NCBI GenBank assembly: GCA_963842445.1
Contig: CAWJHF010000003.1
Location: 143,342-207,341 of the forward strand
Length of the DNA: 64,000 nt
Source: an uncultured Verrucomicrobiae bacterium
GTDB lineage: Bacteria > Verrucomicrobiota > Verrucomicrobiia > Limisphaerales > UBA11358
Direction: 5' to 3'
Part shown: positions 46,787 through 59,796 of the stretch, in pieces
Layout of the letters: each line of letters begins with the position of its first letter
Position numbering within the stretch: the first letter of the stretch is position 1
Program-made: the position numbers and the translations under genes
Notes under the pieces: generated by a model
The model's database searches: none
What the model saw: the letters and a program-made list of their open reading frames with translations, nothing else
What the model was told of the DNA's origin: nothing

Positions 46787-46835
46787 TTTCGCAGCGCAAG
46801 AGATCCCATTCCAAAATATATTCACAAAAATTGTT

Positions 46836-47216
46836 TTAGCGTCTAAGTTCAACCTCGACCATTTCACAATTTTCGTCGAAGCCGCCCTCATCGAGACCTA
46901 CTGAGTACGTTAAATTCATCACACGACCATTTTCCCGAAACAGTTCAGGGTGAGCGCCATGATTGGGCGTCCCACTCATCTCTGACTGTGGCCCTTCCGC
47001 GAGCGTGCTGATAAGCCAATTGTAAGGAACTTTATTGACTGCTAGAATCTTGCCGCTCCTGATGTTCAGTTCAAACGCCACGACTTGCTCTCCCGGCTTT
47101 AGTCGGTCGGGAAAAGACAGTAAAACATCCGGGCCGCTGGCACCTGCCGGGGTGATGTGTGTGCAACCAGCGGCAAACACCGGCAGTAAAGCAAACACGA
47201 GCACGTAAATTCGCAT
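46836..47216 (-). CDS. Distal cassette ORF, putative lipoprotein; no attC found downstream
   Basis: ATG just after GTTAGGT; lipobox-like FAAGC. Confidence 0.6.
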   Translation of the reverse strand: MRIYVLVFALLPVFAAGCTHITPAGASGPDVLLSFPDRLKPGEQVVAFELNIRSGKILAVNKVPYNWLISTLAEGPQSEMSGTPNHGAHPELFRENGRVMNLTYSVGLDEGGFDENCEMVEVELRR

Positions 47217-47219
47217 GGC

Positions 47220-47470
47220 ACCTAACGTCCAGAGCTCAGCCACAGCCACCGGCGGCTGGCTCACGGGTGCAATCTGGACTCTCAAATCTCATAGCTCAAC
47301 CGAAATCTCAAGGGGCAGTGGCCGTTGGCTCCAGCGCGAGGCTGTGTGAAAACTCATTTTTCAACTATTCAATCCATCTGCTCGATTCATCAAAATGCTT
47401 CACAACCCAAATTTGATCGTTACCGAATTTCCTGCCGACACTTTTTACACAGGCTCGCGCAGTGTTAGGC
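47220..47470 (-). repeat. attC interrupted by a MITE
   Basis: ACCTAAC..GCTCAGCCAC...TTGGCTCCAGCGC[MITE]GCGCAGTGTTAGGC. Confidence 0.88.
47338..47456. mobile_element. 119-bp MITE with IS1182-like ends
   Basis: GAGGCTGTGTGAAAA...TTTTACACAGGCTC, flanked by a GCGC duplication; no transposase. Confidence 0.88.
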
Positions 47471-47480
47471 GACGATGTGT

Positions 47481-47760
47481 TCACGGGATATTCTGGGTGT
47501 TCCAGTCATCTCTTTGCAGCTCACCCCAATCAGCAGAAAAAACTTTGTAGCTTTTGGTAAACGGATTGAATTGTAGCAACGCTCGAAATTTGTAATCACC
47601 TGCCTTCGAGCTAGGATCAATCGCCCGACAAATGGCCGTCGGTTCCACATGGTAGGTCCCAAGGACCAATCTATACTCCTCAGATTGTGGAAGACTCGGT
47701 GACTGATATGGAGTGTTGCGTATTATCTGCCTGACTTGACATGACCCTGTCAGGACGACG
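47481..47760 (-). pseudogene. 5'-damaged cassette ORF remnant
   Basis: Open frame LVVLTGSCQVR...DWNTQNIP* ending just before an attC R'' box; no clear start. Confidence 0.35.
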
Positions 47761-47763
47761 AGC

Positions 47764-47974
47764 TAACAACCACGTTTCTACTCCGGCGGTTGCCGTTGCG
47801 CAACCGGTAAATCACCCCCAACTAAAACTGGCGCTGGACATGCATGTCCAATCCATCGTGGTGGCCGCGATGGCCGACGCCCTCCTCAAACCAGTCCGGC
47901 GATTCCGACCGCCGGATTTTCTGAGTTGGGTCAAAAGTCAACAGGCGGCGGGCTGGGCCATCGTCTCCTGCTAG
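47764..47974 (+). pseudogene. Probable IS110-family transposase N-terminal fragment where an attC is expected
   Basis: KLALDMHVQSIVV...FLSWV..Q......VSC* resembles the DEDD N-terminus (LD.H ... SCYEAG), cut at C. Confidence 0.55.
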
Positions 47975-47982
47975 GCGACTGT

Positions 47983-48378
47983 TCATGGCCAAAACCATAA
48001 CCACGTGACGAGCGAGACTAACAGCCCGGCCAACCCCAAAAGCTCGCTCAAACGCAGGCTGCGAAGATAACGAATATAATCCACTGGCAAGCCCGACCGA
48101 GCTGCTCGCCGAACGTCCAATACCGAAAATCCGGCGGCGGCGGCGAAAACGCCAACCATTAGCGATGGTAGCAGCCAATGGCTTTTGCCAATCAGATGTG
48201 GAGCGAGAGCCAGCGCTCCGCCAAGAACAGCCGCTGGAACCAAAAGCAACCACCCATTCTGCTCTGACGAACCGATAAGCTCCTTATGGTCGTCGCTGAG
48301 TGAACGTTTGGCACGCCTCTTGACGAGCACCGCCGCAGCCAGCAGCAGCATAAAAATGATCGCACCTGCGATAAACAT
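47983..48378 (-). CDS. Cassette ORF, 4-TM membrane protein
   Basis: ATG just after GTTAGGC; hydrophobic segments. Confidence 0.7.
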   Translation of the reverse strand: MFIAGAIIFMLLLAAAVLVKRRAKRSLSDDHKELIGSSEQNGWLLLVPAAVLGGALALAPHLIGKSHWLLPSLMVGVFAAAAGFSVLDVRRAARSGLPVDYIRYLRSLRLSELLGLAGLLVSLVTWLWFWP

Positions 48379-48383
48379 AAGTC

Positions 48384-48481
48384 GCCTAACGATCCAAAGC
48401 TGAGCCACGCCGGAACTGCGACATCCGCCAACCGGCGACTTCCCGGCAAACTGAAGGCGTAACCGGCGTTGGCTCCAGCGC
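48384..48481 (-). repeat. attC-A, large half (R'' end displaced to 51048-51061)
   Basis: GCCTAACGATCCAAAGCTGAGCC...TTGGCTCCAGCGC then IS1182. Confidence 0.88.
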
Positions 48482-50154
48482 GAGGCTGTGTGAAAAGTCG
48501 GTCATGATTTGAACAATTACGCCGACGGTTGGTCAGTGACAAGCATGAATCATCGCCCCGGACTGGATCGTTCCCAAACGTTGCTCTTCCCTGAACGACT
48601 GGAGGACTACATCGCCGCCGAAAACCCCGTACGCTTCCTCGACGCCTTCGTCGGTTCGCTCGATCTGCACGCGCTGGGCTTCGCCAAAGCCCGCTGCGCC
48701 GACACGGGCCGTCCCCCTTACGAACCGGCGGCGCTGCTCAAGCTCTACCTTTACGGTTATCTGCACCGAATCCGTTCCAGCCGGTGGCTGGAGGCCGAAT
48801 GCCAGCGCAACGTGGAGGTCATCTGGCTGACGGGCAAACAAGCCCCCGACCACAAGACCATCGCCGATTTCCGCAAGGACAACCTCAAACCGTTGCAGGC
48901 GGTGGCACGGCAGTTCACCGTGCTGTGCCGGAAACTGGAGTTGTTTGGTGGGCAACTGGTGGGAATCGATGGCACCAAGCTGGCGGCGGTCAACAGCAAG
49001 GACGCCCATTTCAATGAAAAGAAACTGCGCGACTTGATCGACCGCGCCGACGCGCAGATTGCCGAATATCTCAAGGGACTGGATGCCACTGACGCGGCGG
49101 AAAGGGCCAGCCCTGTTTGCAGCCGGGCGGAGTTGGCAGCCAAGATCGCGGCGCTGCAGGAGAAAAAGGACTGGCACGAGGAGTTGCTGGGGCAACTGGA
49201 CGCAGAGGAGAAACAAATCTCGGTGAGCGACCCGGACGCGCGGCGGCTGCGGGCTGGCGGCGGTGGCAGCGTGGTGGGTTACAATGTGCAAACGGCGGTC
49301 GATGCGAAGAACAAGCTGATCGCGGCAGCCAACCTGACCAATGAAGAGACGGATTTGCGGCAGTTATCGGGCATGGCACGGGCGGCCAAGGCGAATCTGC
49401 AAGTCGATCAGCTGGAAGTGGTGGCTGACACCGGTTACAGCACGACGGCGGAAGTGGCGGTGTGCGAACAACACGGGATCACGGCGTATGTGCCCAAGGC
49501 CGACACCAGCGCCAACACGGCGCAGGGATTATATGGCAAGAGCCGCTTTACTTACGATGCCACCAAGGATGTGTATGCGTGTCCGGCGGGAGCGGAGTTG
49601 ACTTACCGGTTCAGCACCGATGAAAAAGGACGGCAGGTGCGCTACTACCGGGCCAGCGGGTGCAAGGGCTGCGGGCTCAAGAGACAATGCACGCGCAACA
49701 AGGCCAACCGAACGATCACGCGGGAACAGGATGAAGCCGTGATGGAGGCGATGGCGGCGCGGGTCAAGGCCCACCCGGAGAAGCTCAAACTGCGCAAGCA
49801 GTTGTGCGAACATCCCTTTGGGACGATCAAGCGGTTTTTCGGCTACACCTACTTCCTGATGAAGGGGCTGGCCAAAGTGCGGGCCGAGTGGAGTCTGATG
49901 ACACTGGCCTACAATCTCAAGCGGGTGTTCAATCTGGTAAAGCTCGACCAACTGATGGCGGCGGTGGAGGGCAAAGTCCCGCAGGCGGTCTGAAAGGGGC
50001 GGGCAGACTTCTTTTTGGGCGAGGGGGACGCCCGATCATCCCCGTGGGCTACCATCACGGCTGGAACTTCCAGCCAAAAAAACCGGCGCACGGAATTTCA
50101 AATCACCGGGGAAACATTTTCGCATTCATCGCGCCGGAGTTTTCACACAGGCTC
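48482..50154 (+). mobile_element. IS1182-family insertion sequence, copy 1 (1673 bp)
   Basis: IRs GAGGCTGTGTGAAAA / TTTTCACACAGGCTC, GCGC on both sides. Confidence 0.93.
48545..49993 (+). CDS. IS1182 family transposase
   Basis: GRPPYEP..LLKLYLYGY..I.SSR, PDHKTIADFRK, IDGTK, DPDAR, GYNVQ, ADTGY, EHPFGTIK. Confidence 0.95.
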   Translation: MNHRPGLDRSQTLLFPERLEDYIAAENPVRFLDAFVGSLDLHALGFAKARCADTGRPPYEPAALLKLYLYGYLHRIRSSRWLEAECQRNVEVIWLTGKQAPDHKTIADFRKDNLKPLQAVARQFTVLCRKLELFGGQLVGIDGTKLAAVNSKDAHFNEKKLRDLIDRADAQIAEYLKGLDATDAAERASPVCSRAELAAKIAALQEKKDWHEELLGQLDAEEKQISVSDPDARRLRAGGGGSVVGYNVQTAVDAKNKLIAAANLTNEETDLRQLSGMARAAKANLQVDQLEVVADTGYSTTAEVAVCEQHGITAYVPKADTSANTAQGLYGKSRFTYDATKDVYACPAGAELTYRFSTDEKGRQVRYYRASGCKGCGLKRQCTRNKANRTITREQDEAVMEAMAARVKAHPEKLKLRKQLCEHPFGTIKRFFGYTYFLMKGLAKVRAEWSLMTLAYNLKRVFNLVKLDQLMAAVEGKVPQAV

Positions 50155-50271
50155 GCGCTGGAGCCAACGCCGACTGCCCCTTGAGTTTATGGATGGTTTG
50201 AGTTATACAACGATTATTGAGCTTGCGGAGCCACTTGCCCGTCGGCGTGGCTCAGCTTTGGATCGTTAGGC
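50155..50271 (+). repeat. attC-B, large half, inverted (R'' end at 52735-52748)
   Basis: GCGCTGGAGCCAACGCCGAC...GGCTCAGCTTTGGATCGTTAGGC, 127-bp family in the opposite orientation. Confidence 0.88.
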
Positions 50272-50315
50272 ATCATTTTGTCACAAACATAAATAACAAT
50301 AAATGGAGATTAAAT

Positions 50316-50600
50316 ATGAAACTGAACATTAGAGCGTTTGCGCTGACTTGTGGCATACTCTGGGGACTAGGGCTATTTTCTCTTACTTGGTGGTTTATCG
50401 CATTTGATGGTTCCACCGGAGAGCCTACGCTCATCGGTAAGATATATCGCGGTTATACCATTTCCCCAATCGGCAGCATAATAGGATTGGTATATGCGTT
50501 CTTCGATGCTTTGGTTGGCGGTGCGATATTTGCGTGGCTCTATAATAAGATAGCAGGTTGTGCCGAAGAAAAGCAGAGTCAAGTCAGTCATGATGCCTAA
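50316..50600 (+). CDS. Inverted-segment cassette: small membrane protein of a family often annotated as bacteriophage holin
   Basis: MKLN..AFAL.CG.LWG...Y.GY.....GS.IG..Y.F.D...G..FAWLYN; GGAG RBS. Confidence 0.7.
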   Translation: MKLNIRAFALTCGILWGLGLFSLTWWFIAFDGSTGEPTLIGKIYRGYTISPIGSIIGLVYAFFDALVGGAIFAWLYNKIAGCAEEKQSQVSHDA

Positions 50601-50721
50601 CACCACGCTGGAGCCAACGCCGACTGCCCCTTGAGTTTATGGATGATTTGGGTTATACAACGATTATCGAGCTTGCGGAGCCGCTTGCCCGTCGGCGTGG
50701 CTCAGCTTTGGATCGTTAGGC
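50595..50721 (+). repeat. attC (127-bp family), inverted
   Basis: GCCTAACACCACGCTGGAGCC...GGCTCAGCTTTGGATCGTTAGGC. Confidence 0.92.
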
Positions 50722-50741
50722 CGACTGGCGCATATTTTGTA

Positions 50742-51053
50742 ATGAGACAGCTTTTCTTTTTATCATTGGTGGCTGCGATGATTGCGTCCATCGTTCTCAT
50801 GGTGCGTCGTCCAGTGCGGTTGCTTGCCACTATCCAGATTATTCTTACGGCACTCGTCGTCGTTGGTTTTGCTGTCGGCATGAAGATGGCTTTGTGGATA
50901 CATTCGATGTCCATGTCTGACCCGGTGCGGCAGGAGTGGCAGCCGCGAGTCAGTGTGATTGGAGCCGTTTTGTGGTTTGGGACGATTATTCCGTGGTTAC
51001 TTTTTACGATTTACCATGTCATTATTGTTGTCAGGCGGAAGTCGTCGGCCTAA
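50742..51053 (+). CDS. Inverted-segment cassette: 3-TM membrane protein
   Basis: Stop TAA lies inside R'' (GCCTAAC). Confidence 0.7.
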   Translation: MRQLFFLSLVAAMIASIVLMVRRPVRLLATIQIILTALVVVGFAVGMKMALWIHSMSMSDPVRQEWQPRVSVIGAVLWFGTIIPWLLFTIYHVIIVVRRKSSA

Positions 51054-51061
51054 CACCGCGC

Positions 51062-52734
51062 GAGCCTGTGTGAAAACTCCGGCGCGATGAATGCGAAAAT
51101 GTTTCCCCGGTGATTTGAAATTCCGTGCGCCGGTTTTTTTGGCTGGAAGTTCCAGCCGTGATGGTAGCCCACGGGGATGATCGGGCGTCCCCCTCGCCCA
51201 AAAAGAAGTCTGCCCGCCCCTTTCAGACCGCCTGCGGGACTTTGCCCTCCACCGCCGCCATCAGTTGGTCGAGCTTTACCAGATTGAACACCCGCTTGAG
51301 ATTGTAGGCCAGTGTCATCAGACTCCACTCGGCCCGCACTTTGGCCAGCCCCTTCATCAGGAAGTAGGTGTAGCCGAAAAACCGCTTGATCGTCCCAAAG
51401 GGATGTTCGCACAACTGCTTGCGCAGTTTGAGCTTCTCCGGGTGGGCCTTGACCCGCGCCGCCATCGCCTCCATCACGGCTTCATCCTGTTCCCGCGTGA
51501 TCGTTCGGTTGGCCTTGTTGCGCGTGCATTGTCTCTTGAGCCCGCAGCCCTTGCACCCGCTGGCCCGGTAGTAGCGCACCTGCCGTCCTTTTTCATCGGT
51601 GCTGAACCGGTAAGTCAACTCCGCTCCCGCCGGACACGCATACACATCCTTGGTGGCATCGTAAGTAAAGCGGCTCTTGCCATATAATCCCTGCGCCGTG
51701 TTGGCGCTGGTGTCGGCCTTGGGCACATACGCCGTGATCCCGTGTTGTTCGCACACCGCCACTTCCGCCGTCGTGCTGTAACCGGTGTCAGCCACCACTT
51801 CCAGCTGATCGACTTGCAGATTCGCCTTGGCCGCCCGTGCCATGCCCGATAACTGCCGCAAATCCGTCTCTTCATTGGTCAGGTTGGCTGCCGCGATCAG
51901 CTTGTTCTTCGCATCGACCGCCGTTTGCACATTGTAACCCACCACGCTGCCACCGCCGCCAGCCCGCAGCCGCCGCGCGTCCGGGTCGCTCACCGAGATT
52001 TGTTTCTCCTCTGCGTCCAGTTGCCCCAGCAACTCCTCGTGCCAGTCCTTTTTCTCCTGCAGCGCCGCGATCTTGGCTGCCAACTCCGCCCGGCTGCAAA
52101 CAGGGCTGGCCCTTTCCGCCGCGTCAGTGGCATCCAGTCCCTTGAGATATTCGGCAATCTGTGCGTCGGCGCGGTTGATCAAGTCGCGCAGTTTCTTTTC
52201 ATTGAAATGGGCGTCCTTGCTGTTGACCGCCGCCAGCTTGGTGCCATCGATTCCCACCAGTTGCCCACCAAACAACTCCAGTTTCCGGCACAGCACGGTG
52301 AACTGCCGTGCCACCGCCTGCAACGGTTTGAGGTTGTCCTTGCGGAAATCGGCGATGGTCTTGTGGTTGGGGGCTTGTTTGCCCGTCAGCCAGATGACCT
52401 CCACGTTGCGCTGGCATTCGGCCTCCAGCCACCGGCTGGAACGGATTCGGTGCAGATAACCGTAAAGGTAGAGCTTGAGCAGCGCCGCCGGTTCGTAAGG
52501 GGGACGGCCCGTGTCGGCGCAGCGGGCTTTGGCGAAGCCCAGCGCGTGCAGATCGAGCGAACCGACGAAGGCGTCGAGGAAGCGTACGGGGTTTTCGGCG
52601 GCGATGTAGTCCTCCAGTCGTTCAGGGAAGAGCAACGTTTGGGAACGATCCAGTCCGGGGCGATGATTCATGCTTGTCACTGACCAACCGTCGGCGTAAT
52701 TGTTCAAATCATGACCGACTTTTCACACAGCCTC
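51062..52734 (-). mobile_element. IS1182-family insertion sequence, copy 2 (1673 bp, inverted)
   Basis: Near-identical to copy 1 (APDHK/APNHK and LIDRA/LINRA differ); GCGC flanks. Confidence 0.93.
51223..52671 (-). CDS. IS1182 family transposase
   Basis: Same protein as 48545-49993 except two D>N changes. Confidence 0.95.
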   Translation of the reverse strand: MNHRPGLDRSQTLLFPERLEDYIAAENPVRFLDAFVGSLDLHALGFAKARCADTGRPPYEPAALLKLYLYGYLHRIRSSRWLEAECQRNVEVIWLTGKQAPNHKTIADFRKDNLKPLQAVARQFTVLCRKLELFGGQLVGIDGTKLAAVNSKDAHFNEKKLRDLINRADAQIAEYLKGLDATDAAERASPVCSRAELAAKIAALQEKKDWHEELLGQLDAEEKQISVSDPDARRLRAGGGGSVVGYNVQTAVDAKNKLIAAANLTNEETDLRQLSGMARAAKANLQVDQLEVVADTGYSTTAEVAVCEQHGITAYVPKADTSANTAQGLYGKSRFTYDATKDVYACPAGAELTYRFSTDEKGRQVRYYRASGCKGCGLKRQCTRNKANRTITREQDEAVMEAMAARVKAHPEKLKLRKQLCEHPFGTIKRFFGYTYFLMKGLAKVRAEWSLMTLAYNLKRVFNLVKLDQLMAAVEGKVPQAV

Positions 52735-52742
52735 GCGCGGTG

Positions 52743-53114
52743 TTAGGCCGAAACGCTTCGTCGAGAAAACAATAAGATGCCAGCCGAAGCGACCGCCAAG
52801 ACATCAAACGCAACTCCGACAGCAGAATATGGAGCCTGATCAAAAAATGCGAATAATCCCATCAAGCTCGCCGTCACGGTGAGGAGCGCAACAATCCCCA
52901 TGAGAATACTCGCCCATCTCGCTCCCCGGAAAACATAAAAGCTGCCCACCGTGCCAACCAGATACAAAAGTGCAAAAAATGTGACCACCGCCAAACCATC
53001 GGGGCGGTAATTGGTGGTGGTGACGATGTAGCGAACAGCCAATGATAACGAAACGCACAAATAGCCGCAAATCGCTATCCAAAGTATTCCGAGAATCTGA
53101 TGTATCGTTTTCAT
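52743..53114 (-). CDS. Cassette ORF, 4-TM membrane protein
   Basis: Fills the cassette; stop in R''. Confidence 0.75.
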   Translation of the reverse strand: MKTIHQILGILWIAICGYLCVSLSLAVRYIVTTTNYRPDGLAVVTFFALLYLVGTVGSFYVFRGARWASILMGIVALLTVTASLMGLFAFFDQAPYSAVGVAFDVLAVASAGILLFSRRSVSA

Positions 53115-53130
53115 AGTTATGTCGGTTTCG

Positions 53131-53257
53131 GCCTAACGATCCAAAGCTGAGCCACGCCGACCGGCGAGCGGCTCCGCAATCTCGATAACCGTTGTATAAC
53201 TCAAACCATCCATAAACTCAAGGGGCAGTCGGCGTTGGCTCCAGCGCGGTGTTAGGC
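53131..53257 (-). repeat. attC (127-bp family)
   Basis: GCCTAAC...GTTAGGC with GCTGAGCC / GGCTCCAGC L boxes. Confidence 0.93.
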
Positions 53258-53260
53258 CAC

Positions 53261-53725
53261 TCATCCATGTGCCTGAATCTCCTTCTGACGCTGCTCCGGC
53301 AAATGTGAAATCACTTCAGCAGGCACGGCACAAGGGAAATGTGAATCGAAGTTAGTCCCTCTAAATACTCCGGGGTAAGTCGCGCTTCCGCTCGACTTGT
53401 CACCATGAGTCTCTGTGTAAAGCCAAATAATACGGTTGCCGTCATAAGCCCACACTCTGGACTTGTTCTCAATAAAGACGAACCAGCCCGCCTGTGCATT
53501 CCATTTGAAGCTCACACCGCCGGAGGCGGGATGTGCAAAATCTATCAAATCTTCCGAGACTCCAATTTTCCAAGATTCATCCGGCGTAGTCTGTGTGCAG
53601 AACGTGGTAATAAACATCGGCTGAAACGGTGGCGGTGCTGCTGCTTGGGTGTGAACCGGTGAAGGCGAGTGACATCCCACGAGCAATGTCACGGCGACGA
53701 ATAGGATTGGAATGGTGTAGCGCAT
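53261..53725 (-). CDS. Cassette ORF, putative lipoprotein
   Basis: MRYTIPILFVAVTLLVGC lipobox. Confidence 0.75.
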   Translation of the reverse strand: MRYTIPILFVAVTLLVGCHSPSPVHTQAAAPPPFQPMFITTFCTQTTPDESWKIGVSEDLIDFAHPASGGVSFKWNAQAGWFVFIENKSRVWAYDGNRIIWLYTETHGDKSSGSATYPGVFRGTNFDSHFPCAVPAEVISHLPEQRQKEIQAHG

Positions 53726-53734
53726 AGTAAAGTG

Positions 53735-53833
53735 GCCTAACGAAAAAAGCTGAGCCACCGCCGACCTGCGACGTGAACCGCGATAGCGGAACGGACAGCG
53801 CCAACGGCGGTTGGCTCCGGCGACTTGTTAGGC
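53735..53833 (-). repeat. attC (99-bp family)
   Basis: GCCTAAC..GCTGAGCCACCGCC...GGCGGTTGGCTCCGGCGACTTGTTAGGC. Confidence 0.92.
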
Positions 53834-53847
53834 CACCAACGAAAAAT

Positions 53848-54117
53848 ATGAAAATAATACTCGAAGTAGAAAACGCGAATCCGTTCCAAGCTGGATGGCT
53901 CGCCTGCCACATGGGACTGCCGAAAGACAGTCTCAAGCTCAAAGGCATCTCGCAAGAATCGTGGAACGAAGGATGGAGAATGCGCCAAGAAACCGCCGAC
54001 ATGGAAACTCCCGACGATGCGGGACACGGCGGCTGCCATGTCGCTTTCCTGATGGAAGCAACCAACCCGCTGCCTGAATTTGTGCGCCATAAAGTGAGCG
54101 TGCGACTGGTGGCCTAA
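53848..54117 (+). CDS. Reverse-oriented cassette ORF, Rmf/CrpP-like motif
   Basis: FQAGW.A...G......SW.EGW; frame open back to GTG 53773 inside attC; stop is the TAA of the next core site. Confidence 0.55.
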   Translation: MKIILEVENANPFQAGWLACHMGLPKDSLKLKGISQESWNEGWRMRQETADMETPDDAGHGGCHVAFLMEATNPLPEFVRHKVSVRLVA

Positions 54118-54238
54118 CGATCCAAAGCTGAGCCACGCCGACGGGCGAGCGGCTCCGCAATCTCGATAACCGTTGTCCAACTCAAACCGTCCATAAACTC
54201 AAGGGGTAGTCGGCGTTGGCTCCAGCGCGGTGTTAGGC
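54112..54238 (-). repeat. attC (127-bp family)
   Basis: Near-identical to 53131-53257. Confidence 0.93.
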
Positions 54239-54239
54239 G

Positions 54240-54581
54240 TCATGGATAAACTCTCTGGCCATCCACCAAACAGGATGGTGGCTCACCTACTCGCCCGATG
54301 GTGTAAGTCCCGCCTGCTGGACGAACGACCACACCATTCGTGGCGTAGCAATTTGTAATCCCACCGTTGAGATAAGGCAAAAGCTCCGCCCATGTCGGCG
54401 TATCATTGGTGGTCTTGCCGGTTTCATACATCCACTCGGTCTTGGCTCCCTCAATCTGTCGCAAACTATTGACGTAAAAATTGGATGATGATGTGGAACG
54501 TGCTCTGATGAAATTCGGGATAGCGACTGCCAAAACCACCACGGCAATCGCCGCCAGAACTATGATGAACACTTTCGACAT
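54240..54581 (-). CDS. Cassette ORF, pilin/pseudopilin-like without a prepilin cleavage motif
   Basis: TM then AIPNFIRAR..S...NSLRQIEGAK..W. Confidence 0.65.
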   Translation of the reverse strand: MSKVFIIVLAAIAVVVLAVAIPNFIRARSTSSSNFYVNSLRQIEGAKTEWMYETGKTTNDTPTWAELLPYLNGGITNCYATNGVVVRPAGGTYTIGRVGEPPSCLVDGQRVYP

Positions 54582-54594
54582 ACGCTCGAATGAC

Positions 54595-54721
54595 GCCTAA
54601 CGATCCAAAGCTGAGCCACGCCGACGGGCGAGCGGCTCCGCAAACTCGATAATCGTTGTATAACCCAAATCATCCATAAACTCAAGGGGCAGTCGGCGTT
54701 GGCTCCAGCGCGGTGTTAGGC
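54595..54721 (-). repeat. attC (127-bp family)
   Basis: Near-identical to 53131-53257. Confidence 0.93.
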
Positions 54722-54725
54722 GGCG

Positions 54726-55139
54726 TCATTGTGAACCTCTATCTGCTACCCACTTCTTCATGTGCTCGTCCACATCTCTGAAGACCGCTGGAATGTCAGA
54801 CGCATGGACTTGTGCCATCTGTTCGCGCGTCATGCCCACGTCACCAAAGCCGGGCCACTTCTCACGAAGATACCGAATATGCTCCCTCGCGCAAGGCTCG
54901 CACATGAAACTAACCCGATGTGTGCCGCTCATAAGCGCCAGAGGGTCATATCCTCCGCTGAATGGCTCGCCGCCACAATACCGGCAACCTGCCTTCAACG
55001 CGGTGGTCATCTCATGCGCTTGGGTCGGACTGGAAGCCGCAAAACACTCATCACATAAATCCCTGGATGTGACCGCATCACCCATAATCGTGTTGAAGTG
55101 GCAAGTGGCTTCTCGCTGATGGCAAATCTCGCAAAGCAT
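54726..55139 (-). CDS. Cassette ORF with four CxxC motifs, McsA-like N-terminus
   Basis: MLCEICHQREATCH...LCDEC, CRYC, CEPC. Confidence 0.7.
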   Translation of the reverse strand: MLCEICHQREATCHFNTIMGDAVTSRDLCDECFAASSPTQAHEMTTALKAGCRYCGGEPFSGGYDPLALMSGTHRVSFMCEPCAREHIRYLREKWPGFGDVGMTREQMAQVHASDIPAVFRDVDEHMKKWVADRGSQ

Positions 55140-55154
55140 ATCGTGATGTGAGCC

Positions 55155-55253
55155 GCCTAACGTAGAAAGCTGAGCCACCGCCGACTCGCGACGTGAACCG
55201 CGACAGCGGAACTGACAGCAACTCCGGCGGTTGGCTCCGGCGACTTGTTAGGC
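55155..55253 (-). repeat. attC (99-bp family)
   Basis: Similar to 53735-53833. Confidence 0.92.
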
Positions 55254-55658
55254 CGAACGTCCATATCTCAAAACAACAATGATGTAATACGCCAATGATG
55301 TAAATACTGGAACTAGACCAATCAAACCCCACTGCCAAGAAGCAAAATAATGGCTGTCTGTTCCGGGATTGTGGATAACCAACAACAGAGATATGGCGGC
55401 GAGGGAAGCACATATAGTGCGGCGAATGCTCGCAAACAATCTGATGGAGTCGCTGCGAAATCCAAAAAGCATACGCAAAATCTCACCGCAGCCCCAAATC
55501 AAGATAATCGCATTCGTGAATATCAACACGGGAATACCAAACGCGGCTATGACGAAAAATAGGAATGTGGGAACGCCGAGTATGACCAAGCCGCCAATCT
55601 CAAATATCGAAAGAAATATCGTGAGTGCCAATCTGGTATTTTTGCTTGTCAAATCCAT
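55248..55658 (-). CDS. Cassette ORF, multi-TM membrane protein
   Basis: Hydrophobic; stop in R''; start 55658 or 55670. Confidence 0.7.
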   Translation of the reverse strand: MDLTSKNTRLALTIFLSIFEIGGLVILGVPTFLFFVIAAFGIPVLIFTNAIILIWGCGEILRMLFGFRSDSIRLFASIRRTICASLAAISLLLVIHNPGTDSHYFASWQWGLIGLVPVFTSLAYYIIVVLRYGRSA

Positions 55659-55674
55659 ACGATGTGGCATTTCG

Positions 55675-55803
55675 GCCTAACGATCCAAAGCTGAGCCACG
55701 GCGAGCGGAAAGGCGGTCTGAAATGAAACCGCACCGTCCAAATTTCCGCACACGGTCGAAAACTAAAGGAACACTCGCCGTTGGCTCCAGCGCGGTGTTA
55801 GGT
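55675..55803 (-). repeat. attC (129 bp)
   Basis: GCCTAAC..GCTGAGCCACGGCGAG...CTCGCCGTTGGCTCCAGC..GTTAGGT. Confidence 0.92.
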
Positions 55804-55834
55804 GTCATGGTTGAAGGTGAAAAAGACATGATGG

Positions 55835-56239
55835 CTATGACTGTGGTGCTCCCAAATCAGCGAGTAGCTTGCGTAGCCGGTGAATCTCTCCCACCAACGC
55901 CGGAACATCTTCGCGTGCCTTCGATATGAAATCCTTATCCGCATCTTTGCCAACACACTCAAGCGCCACCGTGAGCGTCGGCTTGCCGGCATCGCTCGAC
56001 TTGCGAAGCCGCTCAACCCAATACGGCTCGCCACCAATCTTGCCTGCTGGAAATATGACGTTGTCATTATCAAACCGGCGTCCGTCTGGTGTAAAGCTCT
56101 CCATCGGAGTCTTGGTGTGCAAACCTCCTGCGTCGGATGTCTTCTTATCGTCGGTGTGCTTGCCGGGCCGCCAATACCACGGACCAGGTGTCGCTCGGTC
56201 GGCTCGCTGCTCAATCTCCTCAATTTCTTTGATGGTCAT
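55835..56239 (-). CDS. Cassette ORF, phage Ead/Ea22-like protein
   Basis: EI..RA.RATPGPW ... D.DFI..AREDVPALV.EI.RLR motif typical of small phage early proteins. Confidence 0.7.
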   Translation of the reverse strand: MTIKEIEEIEQRADRATPGPWYWRPGKHTDDKKTSDAGGLHTKTPMESFTPDGRRFDNDNVIFPAGKIGGEPYWVERLRKSSDAGKPTLTVALECVGKDADKDFISKAREDVPALVGEIHRLRKLLADLGAPQS

Positions 56240-56263
56240 AAAATCAAAACGTGCCGCAATGAC

Positions 56264-56362
56264 ACCTAACGTTCAGAGCTCAGGCACGCGGGGACAACCA
56301 GCGTGAACCGCGAAGCGGAACTGCAACGGCCATCCCGCGTTGCCTGCAGCGATTTGTTAGCC
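56264..56362 (-). repeat. attC (99-bp family, diverged)
   Basis: ACCTAAC..GCTCAGGCACGCGGG...CCCGCGTTGCCTGCAGC..GTTAGCC. Confidence 0.9.
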
Positions 56363-56381
56363 CACGTCTTCATTCGTCCGA

Positions 56382-56834
56382 TCATCTCTTCTCGAAAATC
56401 ATCGTCTCGTCGCTGTCAGGGTCACCGAAAATCATGACAACACGATAAGGTGCTTGCTTGCCGCTCAAACATGCGTCCTCGATGCGGGGCTGAGAATCAA
56501 ACCGCACACCCCACATGTCGTGTCCATCAGTCGAGCCAACAATCGCACATCTCCAGCGACCGGTCGTTGACAAGAAATCTGACTGCCCCGAATTCACATA
56601 GTTCGTCACACCAAATGCCCCATCCGGCTTCAAATCCAATCGGCACTGTCGCCCATGAAGCACGGCCAGCCCATTGGTCGTAACGGACTGCGCAACGAGC
56701 ACATAACTGCCTACCACATCTTCCTTCTTCGGCTCATTGGTCGTGAACGGCTTCCCGGATACAGCTCCGGCATTAAAACCGGAGTCGCAACCAGCAGCCA
56801 AGAGCGAAACGAGAATGACGAGCAGCAAGCGCAT
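56382..56834 (-). CDS. Cassette ORF, putative lipoprotein
   Basis: MRLLLVILVSLLAAGC lipobox. Confidence 0.78.
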   Translation of the reverse strand: MRLLLVILVSLLAAGCDSGFNAGAVSGKPFTTNEPKKEDVVGSYVLVAQSVTTNGLAVLHGRQCRLDLKPDGAFGVTNYVNSGQSDFLSTTGRWRCAIVGSTDGHDMWGVRFDSQPRIEDACLSGKQAPYRVVMIFGDPDSDETMIFEKR

Positions 56835-56837
56835 GTG

Positions 56838-56963
56838 GGCTAACGTCCAAGCTCAGCCACCGCCGCGGAGGATGGCGCTGAACTGCAATCCTGACAATCG
56901 AATTTCATAAAATCGTCCAACTGACCGGCGTAGCGGCGGTTGGCTGCAGCGCCATTGTTAGGC
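56838..56963 (-). repeat. attC (126 bp)
   Basis: GGCTAAC..GCTCAGCCACCGCCGC...GCGGCGGTTGGCTGCAGC..GTTAGGC. Confidence 0.9.
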
Positions 56964-57410
56964 ATACGAAAATATCTCTCCTCTTCGGAACCGGACACGG
57001 CTCAAAATGAGTGAAAGCGGCCACGGTGCCGACAGAAATATCGTAATCGCCCAAAACTCAAGCGTCTCAAAAAACTGGTCAAAAAGTATATCAAACTCGA
57101 CAACTATCAAAAACAAACTAACGCAAAGCGGTAATAGGGAGACGATAAGCGATGGACCGAAAACTATCCGCGAAAAAACGAGCCAACGATTTGGGATAAC
57201 CACGAGGACGGCAAGCAGCGATACAATGATGATGGAAAAGTATAGCCGGTGGTAATATGCTGGAGTCCCCCAATCTGTTGCGTCGCGAGGTGGCGAGGCG
57301 GCGCGCAACATATAAATATCCAAACCAATCATAAACCAAGCAACTGCGATTGCTTCGATACTCGCGAAGATTTTGCAAGCAATGGCGGGTGGTTTCAAAC
57401 TCGATTGCAT
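56958..57410 (-). CDS. Cassette ORF, 4-TM membrane protein
   Basis: Hydrophobic; stop in R''. Confidence 0.72.
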   Translation of the reverse strand: MQSSLKPPAIACKIFASIEAIAVAWFMIGLDIYMLRAASPPRDATDWGTPAYYHRLYFSIIIVSLLAVLVVIPNRWLVFSRIVFGPSLIVSLLPLCVSLFLIVVEFDILFDQFFETLEFWAITIFLSAPWPLSLILSRVRFRRGEIFSYA

Positions 57411-57422
57411 GGGGCGTAGTAT

Positions 57423-57548
57423 GCCTAACGAAAAAAGCTGAGCCACGCCGACCGGCGAGCGGCTCCGCAATCTCGATAATCGTTGTATAACCTAAACCAT
57501 CCATAAACTCAAGGGGCAGTCGGCGTTGGCTCCAGCGCGGTGTTAGGC
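57423..57548 (-). repeat. attC (127-bp family, 126 bp)
   Basis: Near-identical loop to 53131-53257. Confidence 0.93.
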
Positions 57549-57833
57549 CGTCGTCTTTCGTGTGCCATAATTCCAAAAGAAATGTATGAGCGCAACGTCC
57601 ATGCCGGCAACCAACACGAAAATCACAAAAGCCTCACGACTCGCATTAACAGAATCCTGCCGCTCCGCTTCCGCAATAGCCGCATCCTGCTCCGCCTTGG
57701 GACTTGATTGATGTGTCGTCAGAGCCTGCATCATGCGTGGACTGACTCTCGACCCAAAGTGTGGCATGAGCATCCAGAGCAACTGCACAGCAATGAAACT
57801 AACAATCAACAGTCTTACAATGTTCTTGCTCAT
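57543..57833 (-). CDS. Cassette ORF, 2-TM protein
   Basis: Fills the cassette; stop in R''. Confidence 0.72.
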   Translation of the reverse strand: MSKNIVRLLIVSFIAVQLLWMLMPHFGSRVSPRMMQALTTHQSSPKAEQDAAIAEAERQDSVNASREAFVIFVLVAGMDVALIHFFWNYGTRKTTA

Positions 57834-57850
57834 CGCGAGTAACGGACGCG

Positions 57851-57985
57851 GCCTAACGACTCAAGCTCAGCCACAGCCACGACGAACGCGGCTGAGGCCG
57901 GGCAAAACCAAAAGGATGAAAATGCAAAATAATCATACGCAAAACTGCCGGGGCAGTGGCTGTTGGCTGCAGCGCATTGTTAGGC
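57851..57985 (-). repeat. attC (135 bp)
   Basis: GCCTAAC..GCTCAGCCACAGCCAC...GTGGCTGTTGGCTGCAGC..GTTAGGC. Confidence 0.92.
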
Positions 57986-57986
57986 A

Positions 57987-58283
57987 TCAGCCCATCGAAC
58001 CTCCGCCGGAAACGTTTGGTCTATCCGTCAAAGTATTATGAAGCTCTTCGATTTGCTTTTGCTGCCTCTGTATCTGCTCGTCTTTCTCGCGTATGGCGCG
58101 CTCGATGGCTGCCTCACACTTTTTGTCGGCGGCGGCAAGCTGCTTGTCAAGCTCGTTTATCTTAGTAACCGCCGTCTCATGCTCGTGCTCGATGCGCTCA
58201 TTCTTTTTGTGGAGTCTGATAGCCCACATAAAAAGAACAATGGACAGCGATGCGAAGAAACCGGCTGTAATGGTCATGTCCAT
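57987..58283 (-). CDS. Cassette ORF, N-terminal TM plus coiled coil
   Basis: MDMTITAGFFASLSIVLFMW then E/K/Q-rich heptads. Confidence 0.7.
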   Translation of the reverse strand: MDMTITAGFFASLSIVLFMWAIRLHKKNERIEHEHETAVTKINELDKQLAAADKKCEAAIERAIREKDEQIQRQQKQIEELHNTLTDRPNVSGGGSMG

Positions 58284-58303
58284 ATTTCTAAAGCGACGCT
58301 GAT

Positions 58304-58425
58304 GCCTAACGATGGCGCTGAGGCGTGCGCTCCCAAACCAAACGCCAACCCGAAAGGATAAATATGGCAAATGACAATCGCATAACTGAGGGCGTAATCG
58401 CATCGCCTCCAGCAACTTGTTATCC
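58304..58425 (-). repeat. attC of the first cassette (122 bp)
   Basis: GCCTAAC..GCTGAGGCG...CGCCTCCAGC..GTTATCCGC; R'' complements GCGGATAAC at the attI junction over 9 bp. Confidence 0.85.
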
Positions 58426-58690
58426 GCGAAAGGCGACACAATACGAAGGCGAACTCATCCAGCACAGCACATGCCCGCACTGCTCTCATACACCACTCCG
58501 CGAAGGGCCGCACGGCGGGATGTCTCTCAATGTTCTGTGCCCTAAATGCCATCACGAATTTATGTGCGCTCCGGCGCCGACGTGGTGCGAAATGATGGGG
58601 CCAGCATCCGCAGACCGGCTCGCGTGGCCATACGGAATCAAAGCGGATAACAGTATTTCGGTTGAAGTTTCACGGTCTAATTCCGCTTGA
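58364..58690 (+). CDS. Reverse-oriented first-cassette ORF (zinc ribbon) starting inside attC and stopping inside attI
   Basis: GAAAGGA-ATG in the attC loop; CPHC..L.EGP.GG.S.N..CPKC. Confidence 0.65.
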   Translation: MANDNRITEGVIASPPATCYPRKATQYEGELIQHSTCPHCSHTPLREGPHGGMSLNVLCPKCHHEFMCAPAPTWCEMMGPASADRLAWPYGIKADNSISVEVSRSNSA

Positions 58691-58695
58691 TTTTT
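58645..58695 (-). other. attI site (core GTTATCC on the minus strand)
   Basis: Last GTT core before intI, not part of a palindrome; upstream boundary approximate. Confidence 0.75.
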
Positions 58696-58698
58696 GAC

Positions 58699-58727
58699 AT
58701 TAGAAGCTTGTAAAAGACCGTTGTCAA
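58699..58727 (-). promoter_or_regulatory. Candidate cassette promoter Pc
   Basis: TTGACA-17nt-TCTAAT on the minus strand, pointing into attI. Confidence 0.5.
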
Positions 58728-58743
58728 GTGCAATTTTTCATTA

Positions 58744-59796
58744 ATGAATGTCCAACCACCCATCGGCGAAAGGCTGCACCGGCCATTGGAAAGGCTGACG
58801 CCCAATCCCAAACTGAAATTCATGGACCAGTGCCGGGAGGTGATGCGGTTCCACCGGCTGGCGTTGCGCACAGAGGAGGCGTATTTGCAGTGGATCAAAC
58901 GGTTTATTCTCTTTCATCATAAACGGCATCCCAAGGAGATGGGGGAAGCGGAGGTGGAAGCTTTTCTGACGCATCTGGCAGCGGACCGGCTGGTGGCGGC
59001 CAGCACGCAAAACCAGGCGTTGGGGGCGTTGTTGTTCATGTATCAAAAGGTGCTGGGGCGGGAGCTGGAGTTTATGGAGGGGTTTGACCGGGCGCAGCGG
59101 CGGCAGCGGGTGCCGGTGGTGCTGAGCCGGGAGGAGGCGCGGCGGCTGTTGACGGCGGTGCCGGAAAAATACCGGTTGTTCTGCCAGTTGCTTTACGGAA
59201 CGGGGATGCGGTTGATGGAGGGATTGCGGCTGCGGGTGAAGGATGTGGATTTTGAGCGGAATCAGATTGTGGTGCATGACGGCAAGGGGATGAAGGACCG
59301 GGTGACGATGCTGCCCGACAAGCTAAAGCTTGAACTCCAACGGCACCTGGAACGAGTAAAATTATTGCATGAGAAGGATCTGGCGGCGGGGCTGGGAACG
59401 GTCTGGCTGCCGGGGGCGTTGAAGGTGAAGTATCCGGGCGCGGAACGGGAATGGGTGTGGCAGTGGGTTTTTCCCGCGTCGGGATTATCGAACGATCCGC
59501 AGAGTGTGAATCCCGGCGCGCACGGAGCAACGCGCTCCACCTTGCGGCGGCATCATTTGAATGAGACGAGTGTGCAACGGGTGATGAAGGAGGCGGTGGC
59601 GGTGGCGCGGATTGACAAGCGGGCAAGCTGCCATACGCTGCGGCATTCGTTTGCGACGCATCTTTTGGAGAATGGCTATGATATCCGGACGGTGCAGGAT
59701 TTACTCGGACACAAGGATGTGACGACAACGCAGATTTACACACACGTGATGCAGAAACCGGGAATCGGGGTGAGGAGTCCGCTGGACAGTATGTAG
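58744..59796 (+). CDS. intI: Integron integrase
   Basis: [22 protein letters not shown], integron-specific VWLP.AL..KYP.A..EW.WQWVFPA..RHH insertion, [26 protein letters not shown]. Confidence 0.97.

What the first reader, a model, noticed from the sequence alone, without database searches (positions are those of the whole stretch)
47334..52738. IS1182-family elements target attC sites at one fixed GCGC
Seen: all three IS1182-type insertions in the 64 kb (MITE 47338, IS 48482, IS 51062) sit at the same position, GGCTCCA-GCGC-(A/G)GTGTTAGG, between the R'' and L'' boxes of three different attC sites, each with GCGC on both sides. Known: attC targeting is established for IS1111-attC elements and group IIC introns; I do not know of it for IS1182 DDE elements. 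Inference: structure- or sequence-guided targeting that disables attC and locks cassettes together.
Basis: partly seen in the sequence, partly recalled or inferred. Interest (0 to 1): 0.85.

Follow-up and report, generated by a model that had tools for sequence, protein, structure and literature searches.

The report
Jumping gene that homes to integron sites
A family of small jumping genes in soil and wetland Verrucomicrobia inserts almost only into the recombination sites of integron gene cassettes, always at the same spot and in the same direction, a habit so far described only for two unrelated kinds of mobile element.

Summary
The window carries two 1673-bp IS1182-family elements (48482-50154 +, 51062-52734 -) and one 119-bp MITE with the same ends (47338-47456). 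Each is bounded by GCGC inside an attC site, 3 nt from the R'' box. Genome-wide, all 8 elements (4 IS, 3 MITEs, 1 remnant) and all 15 readable junctions abut attC halves. The genome has 43,575 GCGC sites, and attCs cover 0.25% of it.

Relatives at 60-87% transposase identity form one clade (SH-aLRT 100). They show the same junction: 17 of 22 readable right flanks have GTTRRRY at TSD+3, against 0 of 86 in the 44-51% relatives. The junction occurs in 16 of 401 genomes of the order.

One correction: the two window IS copies carry swapped attC halves, so the two cassettes between them are inverted.

Most likely this is a DDE transposase lineage retargeted to the R''-L'' spacer of attC, making a 4-bp duplication. 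Whether it reads sequence, fold or bound integrase is open. That it disables attC is inferred. I found no report of this in five literature searches. It is a new variant of a known kind.

The parts
47221..47337 (+). L-side of the most distal attC of the array, ending in the left GCGC copy (47334-47337)
   Evidence: attC-profile hit, hmm positions 2-118, stopping at the MITE end (C3 190562-190679); sequence
47338..47456 (+). 119-bp MITE with the IS's terminal inverted repeats and no ORF
   Evidence: IR matches at 47338 and 47456. It shares only about 17-20 terminal bases with the IS. Two more copies at 85% and 82% identity lie in attCs on C8
47457..47470 (+). Right GCGC copy, AGT, and the R'' box complement GTTAGGC of the same attC
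48384..48481 (+). L-side of attC X, ending in GCGC
   Evidence: attC-profile hit, hmm 1-118, ending at the IS end (C3 191725-191823)
48482..50154 (+). IS_A, a 1673-bp IS1182-family element. The transposase ORF is 48509-49993; the likely true start is the ATG at 48545
   Evidence: Database clusters of this protein are 481-482 aa
50155..50271 (-). L-side of attC Y in inverted orientation, starting with GCGC
   Evidence: attC-profile hit on the - strand, hmm 1-118 (C3 193612-193495)
50272..51061 (+). Two inverted cassettes with an intact attC at 50595-50721 (inverted). The segment ends with the reverse complement of an R''-side half and GCGC (51048-51061)
   Evidence: ORFs lie on the + strand here but on the - strand elsewhere in the array. 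The attC hit is on the - strand. Sequence
51062..52734 (-). IS_B, the second copy, differing from IS_A at 3 positions; transposase 52707-51223
52735..52748 (+). GCGC, GGT and GTTAGGC: the R''-side half next to IS_B
53131..57985 (+). Nine uninterrupted attC sites of the same array: 53131-53257, 53735-53833, 54112-54238, 54595-54721, 55155-55253, 55675-55802, 56840-56963, 57423-57548, 57851-57985. Those with a single GCGC at the target position serve as empty sites for comparison
   Evidence: hairpin folds
58819..59793 (+). Integron integrase gene intI, divergent from the cassettes
   Evidence: TIGR02249 at 456.4 bits, over its cut-off of 265 (C3 202160-203134)

Best explanation
This is a lineage of IS1182-family DDE insertion sequences (1.67 kb, one transposase of about 482 aa, 15-bp terminal inverted repeats GAGGCTGTGTGAAAA) together with derived 119-bp MITEs. 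They transpose site- and orientation-specifically into integron attC sites. Integration is at GCG(C/A), 3 nt from the R'' box, in the spacer between R'' and L''. It duplicates 4 bp, and the transposase gene points against the cassettes.

Shown: the position, the duplication, the orientation, the genome-wide exclusivity, and conservation across one transposase clade in many Verrucomicrobia and metagenomes.

Inferred: the transposase itself recognises about 20 bp of duplex attC sequence, with consensus GTTGGCTCCA|GCGC|RKKGTTAGGC. This would be an inherited site-specific habit of this IS1182 subgroup retargeted to attC.

Also inferred: the insertion parts R'' from the rest of the site, so that the attC can no longer fold and the two neighbouring cassettes become one unit. 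Multiple copies then drive inversions and deletions in the array.
For: Family: NF033551 at 420.8 bits against a cut-off of 270.

Own genome:
- 4 IS copies at 99.8-100% identity, 3 MITEs and 1 right-end remnant.
- All 15 readable junctions abut attC halves, with different cassettes beyond them.
- Intact attCs carry one GCGC where occupied ones carry two, which gives the 4-bp duplication.
- The genome has 43,575 GCGC sites; attC-profile hits cover 0.25% of it. All 20 copies of GCGC[AG][GT][GT]GTTAGGC are attC-derived.
- Seven of the 20 attC-profile hits with the exact CAGCGC(G/A)GTGTTAG context are occupied, against 0 of 42 others. The motif was read from the occupied sites, so this split is partly circular.

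Other genomes and metagenomes:
- In elements at 60% identity or more, 17 of 22 readable right flanks have GTTRRRY at TSD+3, against 0 of 86 in the 44-51% relatives. In 9 of 16 the complementary box lies 83-125 nt upstream, against 0 of 68.
- An attC profile from the window gives 37 hits in 17 of 28 clade loci (79 kb), against 0 in 144 outgroup loci (592 kb). In 11 of the 25 loci that have a left IS end, the hit stops exactly at that end.
- The clade is one branch of 25 rows with SH-aLRT 100.
- The junction pattern occurs 42 times in 16 of 401 genomes of the order (13 of 165 genera), and 0 times for the reversed control.
- In five of those genomes, 44 of 49 IS ends abut attC halves, 2 abut another copy, and 3 abut other DNA (classed by eye).

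For duplex and sequence recognition: a 4-bp duplication at one place, a fixed orientation, a strong flank consensus over 25 left and 24 right unique flanks, and a sister clade that is also site-specific for another sequence.
Against: Not every clade member fits.
- Five of 22 right flanks lack the box: L009 (the inversion partner), L115 (a tandem copy), L010, L018 and L121.
- L111, L118 and L121 have left flanks unlike attC.
- Three of 49 ends lie in other DNA.
- The five genomes were chosen because they had junctions, so that fraction is biased upward.
- One event in the window joined the IS ends to an attC in the reverse orientation (the inversion), so orientation is not absolute.

Other limits.
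- Nothing distinguishes recognition of sequence from recognition of the fold or of bound IntI. All attCs share the fold, and the conserved bases are also the integrase's own boxes.
- No empty orthologous site was recovered.
- Loss of attC function is not tested. The MITE's arms can pair with each other, so a MITE-bearing attC might still fold.
Confidence: 0.88

Rival explanations
1. Targeting is real but is guided by structure or by a partner protein. The transposase would recognise the folded or extruded attC, or attC bound by the integron integrase, rather than a duplex sequence.
For: Some IS1182-family members target inverted repeats or stem-loops of varied sequence. IS1272 does so, and that paper cites Siguier et al. 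as noting that some members target palindromes (passages of PMC5678879). In the predicted hairpin the GCGC lies at the edge of the unpaired spacer between the R and L stems. Left flanks vary among clade members (CTCCAGCGC, CTGCAGCGC, CTCCGGCGC). For the dif-hunting IS1202 group the authors suggest contact with bound XerC.
Against: A 4-bp duplication at a single place implies staggered joining to an ordinary duplex. Attack on a hairpin stem would duplicate or delete the whole stem, as proposed for IS1272. In the window's genome only one attC sequence subtype is occupied although all subtypes share the fold.
Confidence: 0.25
2. There is no targeting. The IS prefers GCGC anywhere, and only copies in harmless cassette arrays survive selection.
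For: Cassette arrays are largely unexpressed, so insertions there should cost little; this is general knowledge, not tested here.
Against: Survival in a permissive region cannot explain one nucleotide position and one orientation in all 15 readable junctions of the genome. The genome holds 43,575 GCGC sites, and many of them lie inside the arrays but outside attC. Nor can it explain the same junction in 15 other genomes of the order.
Confidence: 0.02
3. The copies spread without transposition, either by integrase-mediated cassette movement or by gene conversion between near-identical attC repeats.
For: The 127-bp attCs of one subtype are nearly identical, so they offer homology on the L side.
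Against: Homology on the R'' side is only about 14 bp, and the cassettes on both sides differ in every copy. A cassette carrying the IS would carry its own ORF along. Terminal inverted repeats with a 4-bp duplication, MITEs with the same ends, and the same position in attCs of different sequence in other genomes all point to transposition.
Confidence: 0.03
4. An element-encoded RNA guides the choice of target, as seekRNA or bridge RNA does in IS1111 and IS110.
For: The IS has a 161-bp non-coding tail after the transposase gene. The known attC-hunting IS elements use such a guide.
Against: The longest word shared between the IS (either strand) and the attC target is 8-9 nt. Shuffled IS sequences reach 8 or more in 183 of 200 trials. 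The MITEs share only the terminal ~20 bases. The enzyme is a DDE transposase, not a DEDD one. A split or structured guide was not tested.
Confidence: 0.03

Closest known systems
IS1111-attC group (ISPa21, ISPst6, ISKpn4; IS1111/IS110 family)
   Same: These are insertion sequences found only in attC sites, forming a monophyletic subgroup of their family. They insert near the 5' end of the attC and antisense to cassette transcription (PMC3001079 discussion; PMC11187229; passages read). The element here also sits at the R''-L'' (5') end with its transposase gene against the cassettes.
   Different: Those elements use a DEDD transposase guided by a seekRNA and move through a circle. That they have sub-terminal repeats and make no typical duplication is recalled, not read here. 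The element here has a DDE transposase of the IS1182 family, terminal inverted repeats, a 4-bp duplication and derived MITEs, and shows no sign of a guide. It is not a member.
Group IIC-attC introns
   Same: They form a monophyletic attC-specific subset of a wider mobile family. They are inserted in the bottom strand, opposite to cassette transcription, and can block read-through (PMC3001079 abstract and passages).
   Different: They are retroelements with a ribozyme and a reverse transcriptase. No Rfam family reaches its gathering score in window 46500-59000, and the only ORF here is a DDE transposase.
IS1182 family, including IS1272 (stem-loop-replacing transposition)
   Same: The same transposase family. 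IS1272 targets inverted repeats, and that paper cites Siguier et al. as noting that some family members target palindromes (PMC5678879 passages). attC is an imperfect palindrome, and the sister clade found here targets a palindromic consensus.
   Different: IS1272 accepts inverted repeats of different sequence and size, deletes them and leaves no duplication. The clade here uses one defined off-centre position in one kind of site, with a 4-bp duplication and a fixed orientation.
ISAjo2 group of the IS1202 family ('dif site hunters')
   Same: These are DDE insertion sequences found in one orientation at a fixed distance (5 bp) from the binding site of a tyrosine recombinase (XerC at dif or pdif). 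They make a short duplication and carry no accessory gene (PMC10132070 abstract and passages). This is the best mechanistic analogue.
   Different: A different IS family, a different recombination site (dif, not attC), and insertion beside the site rather than between two recombinase-binding boxes.

Membership tests
IS1182 family | Transposase matches the family's curated model over its cut-off | tested here: met
   NF033551 at 420.8 bits against 270, covering residues 20-475 of 494
IS1182 family | DDE catalytic domain with the N-terminal DUF772 domain | tested here: met
   PF13751, PF05598 and PF01609 are all over their cut-offs. The individual D, D and E residues were not mapped
IS1182 family | Terminal inverted repeats and a single transposase ORF in a 1.3-2 kb element (size range recalled) | tested here: met
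   1673 bp; the 15-bp ends differ at 1 position; one ORF of 494 aa
Integron attC site (the target) | R'' RYYYAAC and R' GTTRRRY boxes 50-150 nt apart in an imperfect palindrome | tested here: met
   GCCTAAC...GTTAGGC sites of 99-135 nt. They fold as hairpins of -23.5 to -24.7 kcal/mol, z-scores -2.1 to -3.2
Integron attC site (the target) | Arrayed between short co-oriented ORFs next to an integron integrase | tested here: met
   62 profile hits in the genome, in arrays of 13-18 sites beside three intI genes that pass TIGR02249's cut-off. ORFs lie on the - strand
Integron attC site (the target) | Extrahelical bases on the R''-L'' arm of the recombining strand | tested here: inconclusive
   The predicted fold has bulged T and C on the 3' arm of the + strand. 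The usual G and T identities (recalled) are not matched, and no IntegronFinder model was available
Integron attC site (the target) | Recombined by IntI | not testable with these tools
   Needs an excision or integration assay
IS1111-attC group | DEDD transposase of the IS110/IS1111 type with a seekRNA region | tested here: not met
   The only ORF is a DDE IS1182 transposase. No complementarity to the target beyond chance
Group IIC-attC intron | Group II ribozyme and a reverse transcriptase ORF | tested here: not met
   No Rfam match at gathering score in 46500-59000. The ORF is a transposase
MITE derived from this IS | Short, no ORF, same terminal repeats and same duplication as the parent IS, several copies | tested here: met
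   118-119 bp. The first 17 and the last ~13 bases match the IS. GCGC flanks. Three copies in the genome and one in L108

The most novel reading that the evidence does not exclude
This DDE transposase lineage does not simply read a sequence. It recognises the integron recombination site as a structure, or through the integrase bound to it. That would explain why three unrelated mobile elements (group IIC introns, IS1111 elements and this IS1182 clade) all end up at the 5' arm of attC in the antisense orientation. Head-to-tail IRR-GCGC-IRL junctions in three assemblies would then be circle junctions of a copy-out, paste-in pathway, which has not been described for IS1182.
Probability: 0.2. Interest if true: 0.85.

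Novelty: new variant of a known kind. Interest (0 to 1): 0.7.

Why it matters
Integron attC sites were known as homing targets for two mobile lineages, IS1111-attC elements and group IIC-attC introns. A third, mechanistically different lineage (a classical DDE insertion sequence with its own MITEs) landing at the same arm in the same antisense direction would show that attC is a recurrent safe harbour. It would also give a natural three-way comparison of how site-specific targeting evolves.

The clade is abundant: at least 120 protein clusters at 73% identity or more in public data. It therefore probably shapes chromosomal integrons in soil, peat and wetland Verrucomicrobia by fusing cassettes, inverting or deleting array segments, and seeding attC clusters that lack an integrase.

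A single-protein DDE transposase with a target of about 20 bp and a fixed orientation is also a tractable model for target choice, in a family whose transposition I believe (from recall, not from a search) to be little studied.

Tried and rejected
RNA guide. I looked for words shared between the IS (both strands) and the attC target. The longest were 8-9 nt, as in shuffled IS. Rejected as far as contiguous matches go.

Rfam scan of 46500-59000: no family at gathering score. So there is no intron and no curated attC model to lean on.

My first attC finder, a box regex plus an arm-pairing score, was too strict and gave only 8 sites. I replaced it with an nhmmer profile built from 7 window attCs.

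Local palindromy around the insertion point. The attC-clade flanks are no more complementary to their own partner than to another element's (4.94 against 4.93 of 16). With gapped scoring both the clade and the outgroup exceed shuffles only modestly. The idea that the IS sits at the centre of a small local palindrome is rejected for the attC clade.

Public runs. Twenty runs hold part of the stretch, the best with 0.48 of its words. Laying Logan contigs of X1-X4 gave short pieces only. There was no joint across an empty site and no test of the inversion. I draw no habitat or expression claim from them.

Literature. I ran five searches aimed at attC targeting: IS1182 with attC (13 papers; passages of 4 read); IS1111-attC (10); attC/insertion sequences/target specificity/transposase (170, 25 listed); six phrases for targeting attC (13); attC/DDE/IS5/gene cassette/MITE (17). 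None reports an IS1182 or other DDE IS that targets attC. A sixth search, on the IS1182 family, target site duplication and palindromes, led to the IS1272 paper. Tetu and Holmes 2008 (PMC2447020) and Post and Hall 2009 are not held, ISfinder and TnPedia cannot be searched here, and supplements were not opened. Any of these could hold a prior note.

No structure prediction or complex prediction was run, because none would have decided the question.

Full report
WHAT IS IN THE WINDOW.

The region 47221-58300 is the cassette array of a chromosomal integron. It holds 14 hits to an attC profile and short ORFs on the - strand. A divergent integron integrase lies at 58819-59793 and scores 456.4 bits on TIGR02249, whose cut-off is 265.

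Three mobile insertions lie in the distal part of the array:
- a 119-bp MITE at 47338-47456;
- a 1673-bp element, IS_A, at 48482-50154 on the + strand;
- a second copy, IS_B, at 51062-52734 on the - strand.

Each ends in the 15-bp inverted repeat GAGGCTGTGTGAAAA, and each has GCGC on both sides. The 494-aa ORF is an IS1182-family DDE transposase: NF033551 at 420.8 bits against 270, plus Pfam DDE_Tnp_1_6, DUF772 and DDE_Tnp_1. Database clusters of the same protein are 481-482 aa, so the real start is probably the ATG at 48545.

Uninterrupted attCs of the same subtype read ...GTTGGCTCCA-GCGC-GGT-GTTAGGC with one GCGC. The elements therefore made a 4-bp duplication, 3 nt from the 7-bp box. In the predicted hairpin the GCGC lies at the edge of the unpaired spacer between the R and L stems.

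A CORRECTION: THE INVERSION.

IS_A has an L-side half on its left and the reverse complement of another L-side half on its right. IS_B has the reverse complement of an R''-side half on one side and an R''-side half on the other. The two cassettes between them, and the attC at 50595-50721, are in the opposite orientation to the rest of the array.

The structure is L_X | IS_A | rc(L_Y) ... rc(R_X) | IS_B | R_Y. Two routes give it: an intramolecular transposition into a second attC that inverts the intervening DNA, or a reverse-orientation insertion followed by recombination between the copies. Either way the new junctions join the IS ends to attC Y in the opposite sense to all other cases, so orientation specificity is strong but not absolute. 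I cannot exclude an assembly effect at inverted repeats; laid public contigs were too short to tell.

IS IT MORE THAN CHANCE?

In the window's own 3.77-Mb assembly, blastn finds:
- 4 full IS copies at 99.8-100% identity (two in the window, one on C1, one on C4);
- 3 MITEs (the window's, and two on C8 at 85% and 82% identity);
- one 173-bp right-end remnant on C9.

All 15 readable junctions abut attC halves at the same position. The cassettes beyond them differ in every case, so these are separate events. The IS copies differ from each other at 1-5 positions.

The genome has 43,575 GCGC sites, and the 62 attC-profile hits cover 0.25% of it. All 20 copies of GCGC[AG][GT][GT]GTTAGGC belong to attCs: 14 lie in intact sites and 6 next to IS or MITE ends. 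The looser motif GCGM-N3-GTTRRRY occurs 147 times. The only copies outside attC-profile hits that carry an element are the R''-side halves of occupied attCs.

The genome has three integrons, one on each of C3, C1 and C4, and each holds at least one IS copy.

Within the genome only one attC subtype is hit. Seven of the 20 profile hits with CAGCGC(G/A)GTGTTAG context are occupied, against 0 of 42 others. My hand hypergeometric figure is about 1.6e-4. It is overstated, because the sites are kin and the motif was read from the occupied sites.

DOES IT HOLD ELSEWHERE?

Three searches gave relatives: a protein search of 201 genomes of the same order, a pattern-plus-tblastn scan of GTDB genomes, and one of JGI metagenomes. 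Together they gave 178 elements.

Titles name Verrucomicrobia or Verrucomicrobiae for the two close genome hits, L026 at 87% and L027 at 71%.

Thirty-two elements, the 4 copies in the window's genome included, have 60% transposase identity or more. Results for them, against the 44-51% relatives:

| Test | Clade (60% or more) | Relatives (44-51%) |
|---|---|---|
| GTTRRRY at duplication+3, readable right flanks | 17 of 22 | 0 of 86 |
| That box with its complement 83-125 nt upstream | 9 of 16 | 0 of 68 |

The five misses among the 22 right flanks are L009 (the inversion partner), L115 (a tandem copy), L010, L018 and L121.

The attC profile from the window gives 37 hits in 17 of 28 clade loci (79 kb) and none in 144 outgroup loci (592 kb). 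In 11 of the 25 loci with a left IS end, the hit stops exactly at that end. Several loci show further intact attCs around the IS.

I built a maximum-likelihood tree (quick search, LG+G4). It used all 26 unique rows above 51% identity plus 45 rows drawn at random from the 135 unique outgroup rows. Rows under 400 aa were dropped and identical rows merged. All GCGC-flanked elements fall in one branch of 25 rows with SH-aLRT 100, apart from a 38-row branch (96) whose members duplicate GACC, GGTC or GGCC.

The junction pattern (IS end, GCGM, NNN, GTTRRRY) occurs 42 times in 16 of 401 genomes of the order, in 13 of 165 genera. The reversed control gives none.

In five of those genomes, picked because each had at least 3 junctions and therefore biased, I listed every IS end with 25 following bases and classed them by eye. 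Of 49 ends:
- 31 abut the R'' side; three of these have one mismatch in the box, and one has the box at a different distance;
- 13 abut the L side;
- 2 are the two strands of one head-to-tail IS-GCGC-IS junction;
- 3 lie in other DNA.

Duplications other than GCGC occur: GCGA, GTGA, TCAC and ACGC.

The flank consensus over 25 unique left and 24 unique right flanks is GTTGGCTCCA | GCGC | RKK GTTAGGC. At least 120 protein clusters at 73% identity or more exist in public data.

HOW IT MOST LIKELY WORKS.

Terminal inverted repeats, a DDE transposase, a short duplication and trans-mobilisable MITEs together describe ordinary DDE transposition. What is unusual is target choice. I favour recognition of duplex sequence by the transposase itself, for five reasons:
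- a 4-bp duplication at one place implies staggered joining to a normal duplex;
- orientation is fixed although GCGC is a palindrome, so asymmetric flanks must be read;
- the flanks are strongly conserved;
- only one attC subtype is used in the window's genome, although all subtypes share the fold;
- the sister clade is also site-specific, for another consensus, ATGTCCGCTTTT | GACC | CAAAGCGGACAT, so site-specific insertion looks ancestral and attC looks like a retargeting.

The main rival is recognition of the fold or of bound integrase. It is kept alive by three points. IS1272, of the same family, targets stem-loops of varied sequence, and some IS1182 members are reported to target palindromes (PMC5678879 passages). 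The GCGC lies at the unpaired spacer. The left flank varies among clade members.

I found no sign of an RNA guide. Spread by integrase or by gene conversion does not fit the differing cassettes and the 14-bp R'' side. Survival in harmless DNA cannot give one position.

CONSEQUENCES (INFERRED).

The IS puts 1.7 kb between R'' and the rest of the site. The hairpin that IntI needs should then not form, and the two adjacent cassettes would behave as one. The MITE's own arms pair over 19 bp, so a MITE-bearing site might still fold; this is untested.

Signs of rearrangement by the copies:
- the inversion in the window;
- unequal duplication copies in L116, L011 and C8:6297;
- an IS remnant at the edge of an attC cluster without an integrase on C9.

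This fits the suggestion of Cury et al. that IS elements create such clusters (PMC4889954 passage).

COMPARISON WITH WHAT IS KNOWN.

IS1111-attC elements and group IIC-attC introns are the described attC hunters. Both are monophyletic subsets of wider families, and both sit near the 5' end of attC, antisense to the cassettes (PMC3001079 passages; PMC11187229 passages). The clade here does the same with a different enzyme, so it works like them but belongs to neither.

Among DDE elements the nearest analogue is the ISAjo2 group of the IS1202 family. Those elements sit 5 bp from the XerC box of dif and pdif sites, in one orientation, with a 5-bp duplication (PMC10132070 abstract and passages).

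Five searches aimed at attC targeting gave no report of an IS1182 or other DDE insertion sequence that targets attC. One plant-microbiome survey notes that 49% of the transposases found in cassette amplicons were IS5-family, without analysing their sites (PMC11089894 passage). The two founding IS1111-attC papers, ISfinder and TnPedia were not available to me, so the novelty claim is moderate rather than firm.

VERDICT.

Targeting is supported. The way the target is recognised and the effect on the cassettes remain open. This is a new variant of a known kind. Interest 0.7.

Noticed in passing
window 50155-51061: Two cassettes and their attC are inverted between the two inverted IS copies. The new junctions join the IS ends to attC in the reverse sense to all other insertions seen.
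   Followed up: partly
G000 C3:202160-203134, C1:394776-395750, C4:475808-476746: One 3.77-Mb genome carries three integron integrases over the TIGR02249 cut-off, each with an array of 13-18 attCs. Further attC clusters without an integrase lie on C7, C8, C9, C2 and C15.
   Followed up: partly
L010:226-231; L115:1766-1771; G199:C192:103-148: Head-to-tail junctions, right IS end-GCGC-left IS end, occur in three assemblies. They may be tandem insertions into the flanking duplication or junctions of a circular intermediate.
   Followed up: no
L028-L105 and L125-L185 (Alphaproteobacteria and other titles): The sister clade at 44-51% identity duplicates GACC, GGTC or GGCC inside a conserved, imperfectly palindromic consensus, ATGTCCGCTTTT|GACC|CAAAGCGGACAT. 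Pairwise palindromy of single sites is weak.
   Followed up: partly
G000 C9:264033-264205: A 173-bp right-end remnant of the IS (82% identity) lies next to GCGG-TTT-GTTAGGC at the edge of an attC cluster that has no integrase. The DNA on its other side is unrelated.
   Followed up: no
L116; L011; G000 C8:6297-6414: The two copies of the duplication are unequal (GCGA/GCGC, GTGA/ACGC, GTGA/GCGC). This suggests recombination between copies sitting in different attCs, which would delete the cassettes between them.
   Followed up: no
L013 and L017: Two elements at 40-44% identity are flanked by ...GCGGCGTT(A/C)A on both sides in inverted sense, which points to yet another palindromic target.
   Followed up: no
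window 48509-48545: The ORF listed from the TTG at 48509 is 494 aa, but database clusters of the same protein are 481-482 aa. The start is therefore probably the ATG at 48545.
   Followed up: no
G000 C15:247482: One copy of CAGCGC(G/A)GTGTTAG lies outside every attC-profile hit. It may be a lone or degenerate attC.
   Followed up: no
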